Shown here: positions 1,291-37,504 of the stretch, piece by piece
How the letters are laid out: each line of letters begins with the position of its first letter
Numbering within the stretch: the stretch's first letter is position 1
Origin: Thermoproteota archaeon
GTDB taxonomy: Archaea; Asgardarchaeota; Jordiarchaeia; Jordiarchaeales; Freyrarchaeaceae
Assembly: GCA_029258835.1 (NCBI GenBank)
Contig: JAPDJY010000039.1
Span: forward strand, 99,615-163,614
Direction of reading: 5' to 3'
DNA length: 64,000 nucleotides
The notes under the pieces: model-generated
Seen by the model: only the letters and a program-made list of their open reading frames with translations
What the model was told of the DNA's origin: nothing
Database searches by the model: none
Made by a program: the position numbers and the translations under genes

Positions 1291-1844
1291 TCAACCTAAC
1301 TTCCGCTTAATGATCTCTTTAACCAAAAGGTTAAATGCAGCTTCCACGTTTTCACCGTTCTTCGCAGAGGTTTCAAAAAAAGAAGCGTTTATTTCTTTCG
1401 CGTATCTTTTGCCGTCCTCTGTCCGCACCTCCCTAAGGTTAGAGAGGTCAACCTTATTTCCAATAACCACCGTGACAGGTTCCTCCTTAACATTCTTTAA
1501 CAATTCCTTACGCCAATTTTCAAGGTTGTCAAAGGTAGAGCGTCGTGTTATATCGTAAACTAGCATCGCCCCGACTGCACCTTGATAAAACGTACTACGT
1601 ACGTGTTTGAAGTGTGGCTGCCCACCTAAGTCCCAAAGCACCAACTTAGCAGTAAGATCGCCTAAGTTAATAATTTTTGAGAAGATATCTATACCTTTAA
1701 CCCGCTGAGTAGCACGAGCTACCAGCGTATAGTCTTCTTGTAGTCGGCCATAAACCTACCGCTAACATACTTTGATATTAAACTAGTTTTTCCCACGGCA
1801 CCATCACCTGCAAGGATCACCTTATAAACAAGTTCCCGTGACAA
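1291..1844 (-). CDS. Rab-like small GTPase, spliced: exon 1 1729-1844, exon 2 1291-1696, 173 aa
   Basis: Exon 1 starts at TTG 1844 and encodes YKVILAGDGAVGKTSLI (G1). Exon 2 encodes WDLGGQ (G3), NKVD (G4) and ETSAK (G5). Removing 1697-1728 restores YKKTIGIDIF (switch I). Confidence 0.9.
1697..1728 (-). other. Candidate BHB intron (32 nt) in the Rab-like GTPase mRNA
   Basis: Minus strand: GACT AT|A CGCTG-GTAGC-TCGT-GCTAC-T-CAGCG GGTT AA|A GGT. Central 4-bp helix GACT/GGTT, two 3-nt bulges, in-frame TAG inside. Confidence 0.85.
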
Positions 1845-1931
1845 CGATGAAACCCCCTTCTCTAACCGCTATTTCCATTTTTACAGATGAAAAACATTCG
1901 CTAAAAGTTTTAAGCATGTTGATTTCCTTAG

Positions 1932-3276
1932 GTGAACTACCACCCGTTAAAACGGGTGGCTTCCAACATTCGGGGCAGGCTTCTCGCCTATCCCCTCATC
2001 TGCTGGTTCGGGGGTTCACAGCTCTCCTCATCCCATGCCTCTCGTTAAGGCATGGGCTAGGTTAATTGCAGAATTTAAATCCCGATTATAGATTAAACTA
2101 CACTTAGGACATCTAAACTCTCTATCATTAACTTTGGGCAACATGCCCACACTATGACACCCCTTTGAGGTATTCTTTGGATTACTATACACTACAGAAA
2201 TTCCCTCTAAATTAGCTTTGTATTCGATGTATTGCTGTAATTTTCGAAAGCTCCAAGCATGCAACCTTCTGTTTAGCTTAGCAGAACTATTCATGTTCTC
2301 TCTAATTCCATCAAGCTTCTCCATTGCTATTACTGGCTTTTCGAACTGGCTTAGCGTAAGCAACGATTTAGTTGGTTATTATATGCAAATGTTAGTTTAC
2401 AATTTTCTTCTCCTTATGACCAAACCGCTTAACCAAAGTCCAGTCTTTTCTTTCTCTGCAAGTTTCTTCTGATGTGTGCGTATTTTCCTCTTATTTCTCT
2501 TATTCTTTGCTCCGTTCCAAAACTGACCCTTTGTAGGTTTTGGATTTTGCTTTGGTATAGCTACTGCAACAGCTACATTCCACTCCCCTAAATCTACTCC
2601 TATAACAGTTTCTGGCTCATCGATTAGTTCAACGTCTTTCTTAAGCGTGAAGTGTGCATACCACTCCCCGTTTCTCTTCACCATCTCAACCGTGCAAAAT
2701 TTCCACTCCCCTTGCAAAGCTTCTTCTATGAATTTTTGCTGTCTCTTCCCAAAGACTATCGGGAGTGTTATCCTCTCCTTGCAATTAAGGGTTAGAGTAG
2801 CCAGCAAGGAGTTAGTTCGTTGTTGTTTTGGCAAAAGAGTAACACCTTTTGTCAAATCTAATTGAAAGTCTCTTCAGCTTGGGTCGTTCTATTTTGACTT
2901 GCCTTTTTTCTTTTTTCATTGAAACTTTTTAGGATTTCCACTGCTTTATCCCTTGCTGTCTGGATTAAGGCGGTGTTCAGGTTGAATAGCTGTTTAGCTT
3001 TCTCATAGCCATTCTTGTGCAGAGAAGCCTTTGATGTAAAATTGAAGCCTTAGATACCAGTTCACAAGTGCATAATATTCTTCCAAACACTTATTCAGAA
3101 CTAAAACTTTCTTCTTGTTTGGTTTGAAAACCGTTCCTACCACAGTTAGCTGAACTTCTTTCCTCACGGGAACGTCCCTAAAGATTTTTTAACTCTCTAA
3201 GTATTTAATATTAACCTATCCACCTCCCCTAATTCATCCACCTTCACAGATAGGCGGTCTTCTTGCGACAAAAATT
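1932..3276 (-). mobile_element. IS200/IS605-family (IS1341-like, tnpB-only) element, decayed
   Basis: tnpB fragments inside. Right-end hairpin CCACCCGT-TAAA-ACGGGTGG (1940-1959) followed by GTTCAC on the minus strand. Imperfect left-end hairpin near 3235-3260 preceded by TTTAT. Exact ends are inferred. Confidence 0.75.
2028..3167 (-). pseudogene. tnpB: TnpB RNA-guided endonuclease pseudogene (several frameshifts and stops)
   Basis: N-terminus from GTG 3167 (RKEVQLTVVGTVFKPN); RuvC-I IGVDLG in 2397-2855; RuvC-II MEKL, W.FRKLQQYIEYKA, CPKC and RuvC-III NRDLNSAINL in 2028-2363. Confidence 0.88.
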
Positions 3277-27957: not shown

Positions 27958-29176
27958 ATGGCTAATCGAAATGAAGTTGGAACAATAAAGTACATTATAA
28001 AGGCGAAGATAGAAGTAAACGGGGTGGTCGAGAAGCCTGACGTTATAGGCGCGATTTTTGGTCAAGTACGTTGAGCTCACCGCTCACGTAGACCAATTAG
28101 AGGGGCTTCTCGGCTCTGAATTAGACCTTCGAGAGTTGCAACGTACGGGTAGGATAGGTAGGATAAGAGCGAACATTGAGACGCACGGTGGGAAATCTGT
28201 AGGTGAGATTATTATTCCATCAAGTTTGGATAAGGTTGAAACAGCCATCCTTGCTGCGGCGCTTGAAACTATTGATAGAATTGGGCCGTGTAGTGCGAAG
28301 GTAAGTTTTGAGGCAATTGAAGACGTGAGGGAGAGTAAACGCAAGAAGATTATTGAGAGAGCGGTAGAAATTCTTAGGAGGTGGCCTGAGGAGGTTGCCC
28401 CTGAAACGGAGCAAATAATGAATAAGGTAATTGAGGCTGTGCGCGTTGAGGAAATTTGTAAGTATGGTAAGGAAGGGTTGCCGGCTGGGCCTGAAATAGA
28501 TTCTGCTGATGAGGTTATAGTAGTCGAGGGAAGGGCAGACGTGTTAAACATGTTGAAGTATGGTTTTAAAAATGTCATTGCAGTGGAGGGAACCAGCATA
28601 CCGAGAACTATAGTGGAACTTAGTAAAAGAAAAACTATTACAGCATTTCTTGATGGGGATAGGGGCGGGGATTTGATTTTGAAGGAGCTTCTTCAGGTTG
28701 CAGAGGTCGATTATGTTGCTAGGGCTCCACTGGGGAGGGAGGTGGAGGATCTTAGTTTTAAGGAGATTATGAAGGCGTTGAATAACAAGCTTCCCGTTGA
28801 GCAGGCGGTGGAACATGAGGCAGTAAAAAGGAGAGAGGAGAGGAAGCCTTTAATGGTAAGAAGGGGCATTAGACAGGTTCCCCATGAGATCTTGGAGCAC
28901 GCTAGGCGGATTTTTGGTTCAGGTAAGGCGGTTATTTTGGGAGAGCAGTTTAATGTTGTTGCGGAGGTCGACGTATCAGAGCTTGCAGAATACCTTAAGA
29001 GCATGGATGGGAGAGCTGAAGCAGTTATTCTTGATGGAATAGCAACCCAGAGGCTTGTTGACATCTCTCAGGAGAGGGGAATACAGTGGCTCGTCAGCGT
29101 CAGACAGGAAAACATCGTTAAAAAGCCCCCCGACCTTAAAATATTAGAGTTTAACGAAATATTAGGGCATGATTGA
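27958..29176 (+). CDS. dnaG: Archaeal DnaG (primase-like, exosome-associated), spliced: exon 1 27958-28065, exon 2 28097-29176, 395 aa
   Basis: ATG 27958 after GGAGGTGA. Exon 1 encodes KYIIKAKIEVNGVVEKPDVIGAIFGQ; exon 2 encodes LEGLLGSELDLRELQRTGRIGRI, VEGRADV and DGDRGG. Confidence 0.93.
28066..28096 (+). other. Candidate BHB intron (31 nt) in dnaG mRNA
   Basis: GGTC AA|G TACG-T-TGAGC-TCACC-GCTCA-CGTA GACC AA|T; perfect GGTC/GACC central helix; in-frame TGA inside. Confidence 0.9.
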
Positions 29177-36358: not shown

Positions 36359-37504
36359 TTAGCTAACTGGGCGCCAGACTAAACCCAGTTCATCAGCAAG
36401 CTGATAGGCTTTTTGCATCTCCTCGGGTGAAACACGGCGATTTATATCACGATAATTTTTGCTTTTAGGCACAAGATGTGTTGGATAATACTGAGACATT
36501 ACATTTACCAATGCTTTAGGACAGTTTTCAGCGATCCATTCTAAGACGGGGCGGGTGCAGCACTCAACATGTCCTGGCAGAACAAGGTGGCGAATTATCA
36601 TTCCAGAGGAGCCGTTAGCGACTGTTTGCTCGTATGCTAGCTTATGGTTCCGCGAGACAACTTCCCAGTAGTTTTTAACCTTGCTTAGCTTTTCGGCACA
36701 TTCATTATTGCCATACTTAAAGTCAGGCAACCAGAAATCCATGACATCTAATAAAAGCATCATGCATTCCTTAGAGCAGTACATGTTTGAGTTCCAAAGC
36801 TGAGGTATATTAACTCTAAGTTGCCTAATGGCGTCGAGGATTATCCACGTGGATGGAGTAGGGTCTCCGCCAACATAATTTATGTTTCGTGCACCCTCAC
36901 GCTTCAACGTTCTAGCTATGCTGGCCAGGTCGGCGGCAGTTACCTCTGCACCGTTCAGAGGATCCGTGCTTATATCGTGATTCTGACAGAAAACACAGGA
37001 AAAAGTGCAACTAGTGAAGAAGAATGCACCGCTGGACGTTCATCCAGCGATTGTGCCTGAGGGCACTAGGGGTGCTTCCTCACCCATGTGCAGAAACGCT
37101 GTGGAAACGTAAGCTTTAGCACCAAGTTTGCAGAAGCCAAGCTTACCTTCTAAACGGTTTACACCACACCTTCTTTCGCAAAAATGGCAGTTAACAAGGA
37201 TTCGCTTGGCAAGCTCTGCCTTTAGGTCAAGATAGGATGTTTGAGGTGTGTCAAGCTCGCCTAGCTCCACAGATCCTTGATCCACTTTCGTAAGGAGTCT
37301 ACGGAATTGCTTACTGGCACGTTCATGAACATTCCAAAGCATCTCGGTAGGAGAATTAAGGGGTACATCAATGTTTACCTTACTAGCTATTAAAAACTTT
37401 GCAGGCCGCTTATCGTTGAAAACGTCATAGTACCTTTTAAGCCGTTCTAAAACTACGTTATCACTCCACACTTTAAGCGAATCAGGTCTTACCACACGCC
37501 ACAT
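36359..37504 (-). CDS. PflX-like radical SAM protein, spliced: exon 1 37051-37504, exon 2 36359-37023, 372 aa
   Basis: CHFCERRCGVNR, HMGEEAPLVPSGT|IFFTSCTFSCVFCQNHDIS, NINYVGGDPTP, DFKYGN, IIRHLVLPGH. Confidence 0.9.
37024..37050 (-). other. Candidate BHB intron (27 nt) in the PflX-like radical SAM mRNA
   Basis: Minus strand: AG GCAC AA|T CGCTGGA-TGAACG-TCCAGCG GTGC AT|T CT; perfect GCAC/GTGC helix; in-frame TGA. Confidence 0.9.

What the first reader, a model, noticed from the sequence alone, without database searches (positions are those of the whole stretch)
1291..1844. Rab-like GTPase (eukaryotic signature protein) with a BHB intron in switch I
The ORF track shows only a G3-G5 fragment; G1 (GDGAVGKT) lies upstream in another frame. 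The 32-nt insert GACT AT|A CGCTGGTAGCTCGTGCTACTCAGCG GGTT AA|A splits the Ile codon of T-I-G. Unspliced mRNA stops at TAG after about 41 codons, while spliced mRNA gives a complete 173-aa GTPase with no C-terminal Cys prenylation motif. Inference: expression of a eukaryote-like signalling switch may depend on tRNA-splicing machinery, loosely recalling non-spliceosomal HAC1/XBP1 splicing (analogy only).
Basis: partly seen in the sequence, partly recalled or inferred. Interest (0 to 1): 0.9.

Follow-up and report, generated by a model that had tools for sequence, protein, structure and literature searches.

The report
tRNA-type intron in Asgard Rab gene
A Rab-like GTPase gene of an Asgard archaeon is broken by a 32-base hairpin insert shaped like a tRNA intron; relatives keep an insert at the same codon, so the mRNA is very probably spliced by the tRNA-splicing enzymes, a process published so far for only one archaeal protein gene (cbf5).

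Summary
On the minus strand, 1844..1291 encodes a small GTPase interrupted by 32 nt (1728..1697) inside the Ile codon that follows the switch-I Thr. Removing the insert gives a 173-aa protein. The two pieces match the Pfam Ras profile at positions 1-31 and 33-161.

The insert folds as a relaxed bulge-helix-bulge (BHB) motif:
- a 4-bp helix, GACU/GGUU
- two bulges, AU^A and AA^A
- a 10-bp inner hairpin
- no outer helix

Four independent metagenome assemblies carry the insert in DNA. Four other versions of the gene from relatives have a 30- or 31-nt insert at the same codon. In these the helix and bulges are invariant, the stem shows compensatory changes and the loops differ. These relatives also carry a second insert in the P-loop.

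Both exons are under strong purifying selection (pN about 0.1; pS 0.8-0.95 over the whole gene). The genome encodes a crenarchaeal-type EndA alpha subunit with the extra loop, a second EndA paralogue and RtcB. I read inserts of the same type in dnaG, cbf5, pcm, a PflX-like gene and an Fe-S gene of this genome.

No RNA data could be found, so splicing is inferred. This scan had already noted the two-intron orthologue in another genome. Verdict: a genuine BHB mRNA intron and a new member of the cbf5-type kind. Interest is high.

The parts
1729..1844 (-). Exon 1. TTG start at 1844, P-loop GDGAVGKT, ends with the first two bases (AU) of the Ile codon after the switch-I Thr.
   Evidence: Pfam Ras profile positions 1-31. 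The start codon and the Shine-Dalgarno-like GGAGG/GGGGG sit at the same position in the orthologues.
1697..1728 (-). 32-nt BHB-type intron: A + CGCUGGUAGC + loop UCGU + GCUAC(U)CAGCG + GGUU + AA.
   Evidence: Present in four independent metagenome assemblies. Unique in the genome; other matches are 16 nt or shorter.
1291..1696 (-). Exon 2. Third base of the Ile codon, then GIDIF..., G3 WDLGGQ, G4 GNKVD, G5 ETSAK, stop at 1293..1291.
   Evidence: Pfam Ras profile positions 33-161. Best PDB matches are Thorarchaeota Rab 7EZB and eukaryotic Rab11/2/14/4/8.
1731..1734 (-). 5' strand of central helix H (GACU, in exon 1). It pairs with GGUU at 1702..1699.
   Evidence: Invariant in all 5 distinct sequences.
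1728..1730 (-). 5' bulge AU^A. The predicted cut lies between 1729 and 1728.
   Evidence: This cut register gives T-I-G.
1703..1727 (-). Inner hairpin h' (10 bp with one bulged U, loop UCGU).
   Evidence: Compensatory changes among orthologues. A population variant at 1706 turns U:A into U:G.
1699..1702 (-). 3' strand of central helix H (GGUU, in the intron).
   Evidence: Invariant although non-coding.
1696..1698 (-). 3' bulge AA^A. The predicted cut lies between 1697 and 1696.
   Evidence: Invariant in the orthologues.

Best explanation
The 32 nt at 1728..1697 are an archaeal bulge-helix-bulge intron inside the pre-mRNA of a Rab-like small GTPase.

Proposed mechanism:
1. The transcript folds so that exon bases GACU pair with intron bases GGUU.
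2. This 4-bp helix is flanked by two 3-nt bulges (AUA, AAA) and stacks on a 10-bp intron hairpin.
3. The heteromeric (alpha-beta)2 splicing endonuclease EndA cuts after the second base of each bulge.
4. RtcB joins the exons.
5. The repaired mRNA encodes a complete 173-aa GTPase with an intact switch I (YKKTIGIDIF).

Shown: the anatomy, the restoration of frame and motif, conservation of the intron site with compensatory stem changes, purifying selection on both exons, and the presence of the enzymes.

Inferred: that cutting and ligation actually occur on this mRNA.
For: 1. Splicing at the BHB register restores the frame and makes the product colinear with the Ras profile (1-31 / 33-161) and with the intronless homologues.

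2. Five distinct versions of the gene carry an insert at the same codon, of 32, 30, 30, 31 and 31 nt. They are this genome, G001/L122, L121, L057/L058 and L118-120. The frame effect therefore differs between versions, and the in-frame 30-nt inserts contain stop codons.

3. H (GACU/GGUU) and both bulges are invariant, although GGUU and AA are non-coding. In the stem, 55 of 55 cells pair, against 23-45% when the partner is slid. Two pairs changed on both sides (G:C<->A:U; C:G<->U:A via U:G). The loops differ freely. A population variant in the stem gives U:A->U:G.

4. The relatives carry a second insert (44 or 54 nt) in the P-loop. The same cut rule regenerates GDGAVGKT there.

5. Over the whole gene pN is 0.08-0.12 against pS of 0.81-0.94, and both exons taken separately show the same pattern. 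Gene order LysE-Rab-2-hydroxyacid dehydrogenase is conserved. The gene is therefore functional in all these lineages despite the interruption.

6. The genome has an EndA alpha subunit with catalytic Tyr/His/Lys. It aligns without gaps to the A. pernix alpha subunit across the crenarchaeal extra loop. There is also a second EndA paralogue lacking the His, and RtcB. The literature ties this enzyme type to relaxed BHB motifs and to cbf5 mRNA splicing (PMC2738675, PMC5829648, PMC2724299).

7. The same rule repairs other genes of this genome. dnaG is colinear on NF003108 at positions 1-26 / 28-273. cbf5, pcm, a PflX-like radical-SAM gene and an Fe-S gene were read by eye.
Against: There is no transcript evidence of any kind. 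The motif lacks the outer exon-exon helix, so the 3' bulge is defined on one side only; cleavage of such a substrate by this particular enzyme is assumed from crenarchaeal work. Two of the four central-helix pairs are G:U. Only five distinct sequences, all close kin, support the covariation (33 of 500 shuffles reach the observed score). My genome-wide motif-plus-frame scan gave no enrichment over chance.
Confidence: 0.85

Rival explanations
1. Pseudogene. A short insertion inactivated the GTPase gene and nothing functional is made.
For: The unspliced frame stops after 41 codons. The NCBI annotation of a relative calls only a truncated 149-aa product.
Against: Both exons show pN about 0.1 with saturated pS across three diverged lineages that all carry the insert. 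The start codon, SD and synteny are conserved. The insert itself evolves under a structural constraint. The other roughly 10 small-GTPase genes of this genome are uninterrupted.
Confidence: 0.04
2. Translational bypassing or recoding. Ribosomes hop over the hairpin, as in phage T4 gene 60, without any RNA splicing.
For: There is a stable hairpin with an in-frame UAG soon after the break. For the P-loop insert of two relatives, a GGA-to-GGA hop would give the same protein.
Against: At the switch-I insert no matched take-off and landing codons are conserved (AUA, then AUA in this genome but AUC in the relatives). Such a hop would also delete the conserved Gly of T-I-G. The stop lies three codons after the break, not adjacent to it. 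In G001 the GGA hop at the P-loop insert would give GTV instead of the conserved GAV. What is conserved instead is the 4-bp helix plus 3-nt bulge geometry, which is the EndA signature.
Confidence: 0.04
3. Split protein. A 41-aa P-loop peptide and a separately initiated C-terminal fragment assemble non-covalently.
For: An ORF of 117 aa starts at a TTG inside exon 2.
Against: That TTG lies downstream of switch I and has no SD. The break falls inside a codon. In the relatives the gene would be in three pieces, one of only about 25 codons. Insert length varies from 30 to 32 nt without any conserved start codon.
Confidence: 0.03
4. Assembly or sequencing artefact, or a strain-specific insertion.
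For: The genome is a 91-contig metagenome bin with 6% contamination.
Against: Contigs from four runs of four studies span the site with no indel and no joint. Relatives have the insert at the same codon.
Confidence: 0.01

Closest known systems
BHB intron in the cbf5 (pseudouridine synthase) pre-mRNA of Crenarchaeota (Watanabe 2002; Yoshinari 2006; Yokobori 2009, PMC2738675)
   Same: A short insert inside a coding sequence with an often relaxed BHB motif. It occurs in organisms with a hetero-oligomeric EndA that carries the extra loop. The intron is present or absent among relatives.
   Different: The host gene is a Rab-like signalling GTPase, not cbf5. The lineage is Asgard (Jordarchaeales by the NCBI names of near relatives), not Crenarchaeota. 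Orthologues carry two introns in one gene. It is one of several interrupted genes in this genome, cbf5 among them. Splicing of cbf5 was shown experimentally; here it is inferred.
Archaeal tRNA and rRNA BHB introns
   Same: Same geometry (3-nt bulge, 4-bp helix, 3-nt bulge), same cut rule and the same size range as tRNA introns (PMC2738675 gives 11-175 nt). The same enzymes are encoded.
   Different: It lies in an mRNA with no tRNA body. The outer helix is missing. The exon half of the motif is constrained by codons (AAG ACU AU).
HAC1/XBP1 unconventional mRNA splicing (IRE1 plus tRNA ligase/RtcB)
   Same: Spliceosome-independent removal of a short frame-changing intron by an endonuclease that recognises RNA structure, followed by a tRNA-type ligase. 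RtcB does this in metazoa (established knowledge).
   Different: The nuclease is different (IRE1, not EndA) and so is the motif (twin stem-loops, not BHB). HAC1/XBP1 splicing is a regulated stress switch; no evidence of regulation exists here.
Asgard Rab-like GTPases (e.g. Thorarchaeota Rab, PDB 7EZB)
   Same: Best PDB match to exon 2 (E = 3.7e-33). G1-G5 motifs are present and there is no C-terminal prenylation Cys.
   Different: The solved Thorarchaeota protein matched only as a protein sequence, and I did not look at its gene. In this genome this is the only interrupted gene among about 11 small-GTPase genes.

Membership tests
Archaeal BHB intron (EndA substrate) | [quoted passage not shown] | tested here: met
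   GACU/GGUU (4 of 4 pairs, two of them G:U), with bulges AUA and AAA. Identical in 5 distinct sequences.
Archaeal BHB intron (EndA substrate) | Flanking helices: inner h' and outer exon-exon h (canonical hBHBh') | tested here: inconclusive
   h' is present (10 bp). The outer h has 0 contiguous pairs adjacent to the bulge. Only distant exon pairings appear in MFE folds. This fits the relaxed HBh' class, not the canonical one.
Archaeal BHB intron (EndA substrate) | Cutting after the 2nd base of each bulge yields a functional, colinear product | tested here: met
   The frame is restored, T-I-G is rebuilt, and the Ras profile matches at 1-31 / 33-161. The same rule works for the orthologues and for their P-loop intron.
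Archaeal BHB intron (EndA substrate) | Structure conserved by compensatory change while the sequence drifts | tested here: met
   100% of cells paired, 2 pairs with double changes, loops and lengths vary. The sample is small and the sequences are related.
Archaeal BHB intron (EndA substrate) | Host encodes a broad-specificity EndA (alpha-beta type with extra loop) and the RtcB ligase | tested here: met
   The role of the loop in specificity is taken from PMC2724299 and PMC5829648.
Archaeal BHB intron (EndA substrate) | Spliced RNA and excised (often circular) intron observed | not testable with these tools
   No RNA run holds the locus.
Rab/Ras-superfamily small GTPase | G1-G5 motifs and a match to the family profile | tested here: met
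   GDGAVGKT, T of TIG, WDLGGQ, GNKVD and ETSAK are present. PF00071 scores 128 bits for exon 2 alone.
Eukaryotic Rab proper | C-terminal Cys prenylation motif | tested here: not met
   The C-terminus ...EIIKRKLG has no Cys. The protein is therefore 'Rab-like'. The top 60 PDB hits are all Rabs or the yeast Rab homologues Ypt31/32 where the molecule is named; three carry only generic names. RabF motifs and the phylogeny were not tested.
Gene-60-type translational bypass | Matched take-off and landing codons, with a stop codon directly after take-off | tested here: not met
   AUA is followed by AUA in this genome but by AUC in the relatives. The UAG lies three codons downstream.

The most novel reading that the evidence does not exclude
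The Rab intron is one visible piece of a general layer of gene expression in Jordarchaeia-type Asgard archaea. In this reading, dozens of ordinary protein-coding mRNAs (signalling, replication, translation, metabolism) need EndA/RtcB splicing, and introns are gained and lost between genera (the P-loop intron is present in the sister genus and absent here). That would make these archaea prokaryotes with routinely interrupted protein genes, with splicing capacity as a possible global or gene-specific control point.
Probability: 0.5. Interest if true: 0.9.

Novelty: new member of a known kind. Interest (0 to 1): 0.78.

Why it matters
In the literature I could search, enzymatic (BHB) splicing inside an archaeal coding sequence is documented only for cbf5 of Crenarchaeota.

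Here the same mechanism is strongly indicated for a eukaryote-signature GTPase in an Asgard archaeon. The intron site is conserved across genera, a second intron occurs in relatives, and there are sister cases in dnaG, cbf5 and other genes of the same genome.

If confirmed, three things follow:
- Annotation pipelines systematically truncate or miss such genes. NCBI calls a 149-aa fragment in a relative.
- Asgard proteomes and ESP inventories are under-read.
- The closest prokaryotic relatives of eukaryotes carry interrupted protein genes that depend on protein-only splicing enzymes. This bears directly on ideas about how cells tolerated introns before the spliceosome.

Tried and rejected
1. 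RNA evidence. No RNA holder was listed for the locus in either search, so expression and splicing could not be examined.

2. Genome-wide census. A structural BHB scan was combined first with open-frame tests and then with a trained codon-usage model. Frame-consistent candidates came out at about one third, which is chance. The motif alone carries too little information. Only homology-checked cases are reported, and no count of introns is claimed.

3. The shared CGCTGG...CAGCG pattern occurs 32 times in the genome against 26-40 in shuffles. The Rab intron has no other match longer than 16 nt. The claim is not supported.

4. Rfam and ARAGORN on the window gave no hits.

5. The genome-contig scan returned only distant paralogues.

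6. The orthologue was not found with this query in G002-G004, which are 73-92% complete.

7. The homologues in the sister family are the closest intronless relatives (56-61% identity), but they do not share the LysE/2-hydroxyacid dehydrogenase neighbours within 1.5 kb. I therefore do not claim strict orthology or a direction of gain or loss.

9. ARAGORN on the genome found 25 tRNAs, 20 of them with intron calls. These calls are noisy, so I use them only as a hint that tRNA genes are heavily interrupted.

Full report
**What is there**

The window is G000:C1:99615-163614 of a 2.72-Mb, 91-contig genome with 48.8% GC. On the minus strand, a TTG at 1844 preceded by GGGGG opens a frame that reads MSRELVYKVILAGDGAVGKTSLISKYVSGRFMADYKKTI and then RW-stop. 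A second frame, offset by +2, reads GIDIFSK...WDLGGQ...GNKVD...ETSAK... down to the stop at 1291. Deleting the 32 nt at 1728..1697 joins the two frames into a 173-aa protein.

Pfam Ras (PF00071) matches exon 1 at profile positions 1-31 and exon 2 at 33-161. Exactly one position is missing, the split Ile codon that follows the switch-I Thr. The best matches to solved structures are a Thorarchaeota Rab (7EZB) and eukaryotic Rab11/2/14/4/8. There is no C-terminal Cys.

**Shape of the insert**

The core (1738..1694) folds as follows:
- GACU, then the bulge AUA
- a 10-bp hairpin (CGCUGGUAGC, loop UCGU, GCUAC-U-CAGCG)
- GGUU, which pairs back to GACU
- AAA

The energy is -17.4 kcal/mol, z = -3.3 against shuffles. 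This is the bulge-helix-bulge geometry with the inner helix h'. Cutting after the second base of each bulge (AU^A, AA^A) removes exactly the 32 nt. No exon-exon outer helix adjoins the 3' bulge, so the motif belongs to the relaxed HBh' class.

**It is real DNA**

Contigs from four runs of four different studies (sediment and hydrothermal-vent metagenomes) span the site at 99% identity or more, with no indel and no joint.

Their few differences are informative:
- Two exon variants are synonymous.
- One variant (N107T) matches the residue found in the orthologues.
- One variant inside the stem (1706) turns U:A into U:G.

**Comparative evidence**

A sister-genus genome (G001, 82% protein identity) has a 30-nt insert at the same codon, and also a 44-nt insert inside the P-loop, between GDG and AVGKT. 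Further versions of the gene come from several sources:
- metagenome contigs L057/L058
- three NCBI MAGs labelled Jordarchaeales (L118-120)
- a Logan contig (L121)

These carry switch-I inserts of 31, 31 and 30 nt and P-loop inserts of 54, 54 and 44 nt.

Five distinct switch-I inserts therefore have lengths 32, 30, 30, 31 and 31, each with a different effect on the frame. The in-frame 30-nt inserts contain stop codons, so the insert is not translated. GACU, AU^A, GGUU and AA^A are identical in all five, although GGUU and AA are non-coding. In the stem all 55 cells pair, against 23-45% when the partner is slid. Two pairs changed on both sides (G:C<->A:U; C:G<->U:A with a U:G intermediate). The loops are unrelated.

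Applying the same cut rule to the P-loop inserts (H = ACGG/CCGG, bulges AG^A and AA^C or AG^C) regenerates GDGAVGKT. The spliced products (171-173 aa) are colinear with the uninterrupted homologues of the sister family.

**Selection**

Between the three lineages, over the whole gene, pN is 0.08-0.12 while pS is 0.81-0.94, which is saturated; both exons taken separately show the same pattern. The start codon, the SD and the gene order LysE-Rab-2-hydroxyacid dehydrogenase are conserved. A gene that was dead since before these lineages split would not look like this. The other roughly ten small-GTPase genes of the genome are uninterrupted.

**Machinery**

The genome encodes two proteins with the EndA catalytic fold and one RtcB.

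The 190-aa EndA protein has these features:
- It keeps the catalytic Tyr/His/Lys.
- It matches the catalytic chains of the A. pernix and P. aerophilum heterotetramers best.
- It aligns without a gap across the crenarchaeal extra loop.

The second EndA protein lacks the His, as a structural subunit would.

Published work ties this enzyme type and its loop to cleavage of relaxed motifs outside a tRNA context and to cbf5 mRNA splicing (PMC2738675, PMC2724299). It also reports the loop-bearing (alpha-beta)2 enzyme in Asgard archaea (PMC5829648).

**Not an isolated case**

Several other genes of this genome carry inserts that obey the same rule.

| Gene | Location | Insert | Helix and bulges | Check |
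|---|---|---|---|---|
| dnaG | window 28066-28096, + | 31 nt | GGUC/GACC, AA^G, AA^U | Exons hit NF003108 at positions 1-26 and 28-273 |
| PflX-like radical-SAM gene | window 37050..37024, - | 27 nt, in frame, contains a stop | GCAC/GUGC, AA^U, AU^U | Read by eye |
| cbf5 | C27:11929-11955 | 27 nt | not listed | Splits the Asp codon of GTLDPKVTG |
| Protein-L-isoaspartate methyltransferase (pcm) | C8:8772-8796 | 25 nt | not listed | Read by eye |
| Fe-S protein | C1:66062-66089 | 28 nt | not listed | Read by eye |

My attempts to turn this into a statistical census failed, so I give no total.

**Alternatives**

- Pseudogene: contradicted by the evidence for purifying selection.
- Artefact: contradicted.
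- Ribosomal bypassing: lacks conserved matched codons at this site and would delete the conserved Gly.
- Split protein: lacks start signals, and the break falls inside a codon.

**Literature and earlier notes**

Full-text searches found BHB introns within archaeal coding sequences only for crenarchaeal cbf5. They found nothing on Asgard mRNAs. A 2026 preprint (10.64898/2026.10.13.758758) describes heavily interrupted Asgard tRNA genes and widespread two-paralogue EndA.

Earlier notes of this scan had already described the two-intron orthologue in another genome (e1-2514431, e1-5423879) and listed other interrupted genes in this genome. I re-derived the orthologue evidence independently. One earlier claim, that the Rab and PflX introns share a common origin, was tested and not supported.

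**Verdict**

This is a genuine BHB-type intron in a Rab-like GTPase mRNA (confidence 0.85) and a new member of the cbf5-type kind. What is missing is direct RNA evidence.

Noticed in passing
window 28066-28096 (+): The dnaG primase gene is interrupted by a 31-nt BHB insert (H = GGUC/GACC, bulges AA^G and AA^U). Exon 1 (27958-28065) and exon 2 (28097-29176) hit NCBIfam DnaG NF003108 at positions 1-26 and 28-273.
   Followed up: yes
window 37024-37050 (-): A PflX-like radical-SAM activase gene carries a 27-nt in-frame insert containing UGA (H = GCAC/GUGC, bulges AA^U and AU^U). Removing it gives ...PSGTIFFTSCTFSCVFCQN.... Exon 1 had no NCBIfam hit, so this case rests on reading the motif.
   Followed up: partly
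G000:C27:11929-11955 (outside the window): The cbf5 gene of this Asgard genome has a 27-nt BHB insert that splits the catalytic Asp codon of GTLDPKVTG (H = CACU/GGUG, bulges AG^A and AA^A). cbf5 is the one gene family for which mRNA BHB splicing is published, in Crenarchaeota.
   Followed up: partly
G000:C8:8772-8796 and G000:C1:66062-66089 (outside the window): A protein-L-isoaspartate methyltransferase gene (GQTISAP|HM) and an Fe-S cluster protein gene (CGY|CIEECP) each carry a BHB-type insert of 25-28 nt that obeys the same cut rule. Both were read by eye only.
   Followed up: partly
window 1928-2865: Fragmented TnpB/IS605-like ORFs (2028-2855, -) lie between the Rab gene and the LysE gene, which are adjacent in relatives. 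A 32-nt hairpin element at 1931-1962 occurs on many other metagenome contigs at higher depth and is probably the transposon end.
   Followed up: no
whole genome G000: ARAGORN finds only 25 tRNA genes, 20 of them with intron calls, and none in this 64-kb window. This fits reports of heavily interrupted, hard-to-detect Asgard tRNA genes.
   Followed up: no
L002:1356-1399, L057:1045-1098, L121:426-469: The sister-genus orthologues carry a second BHB insert (44 or 54 nt) between GDG and AVGKT of the P-loop. It is absent from this genome, so the presence of this intron varies between genera.
   Followed up: yes
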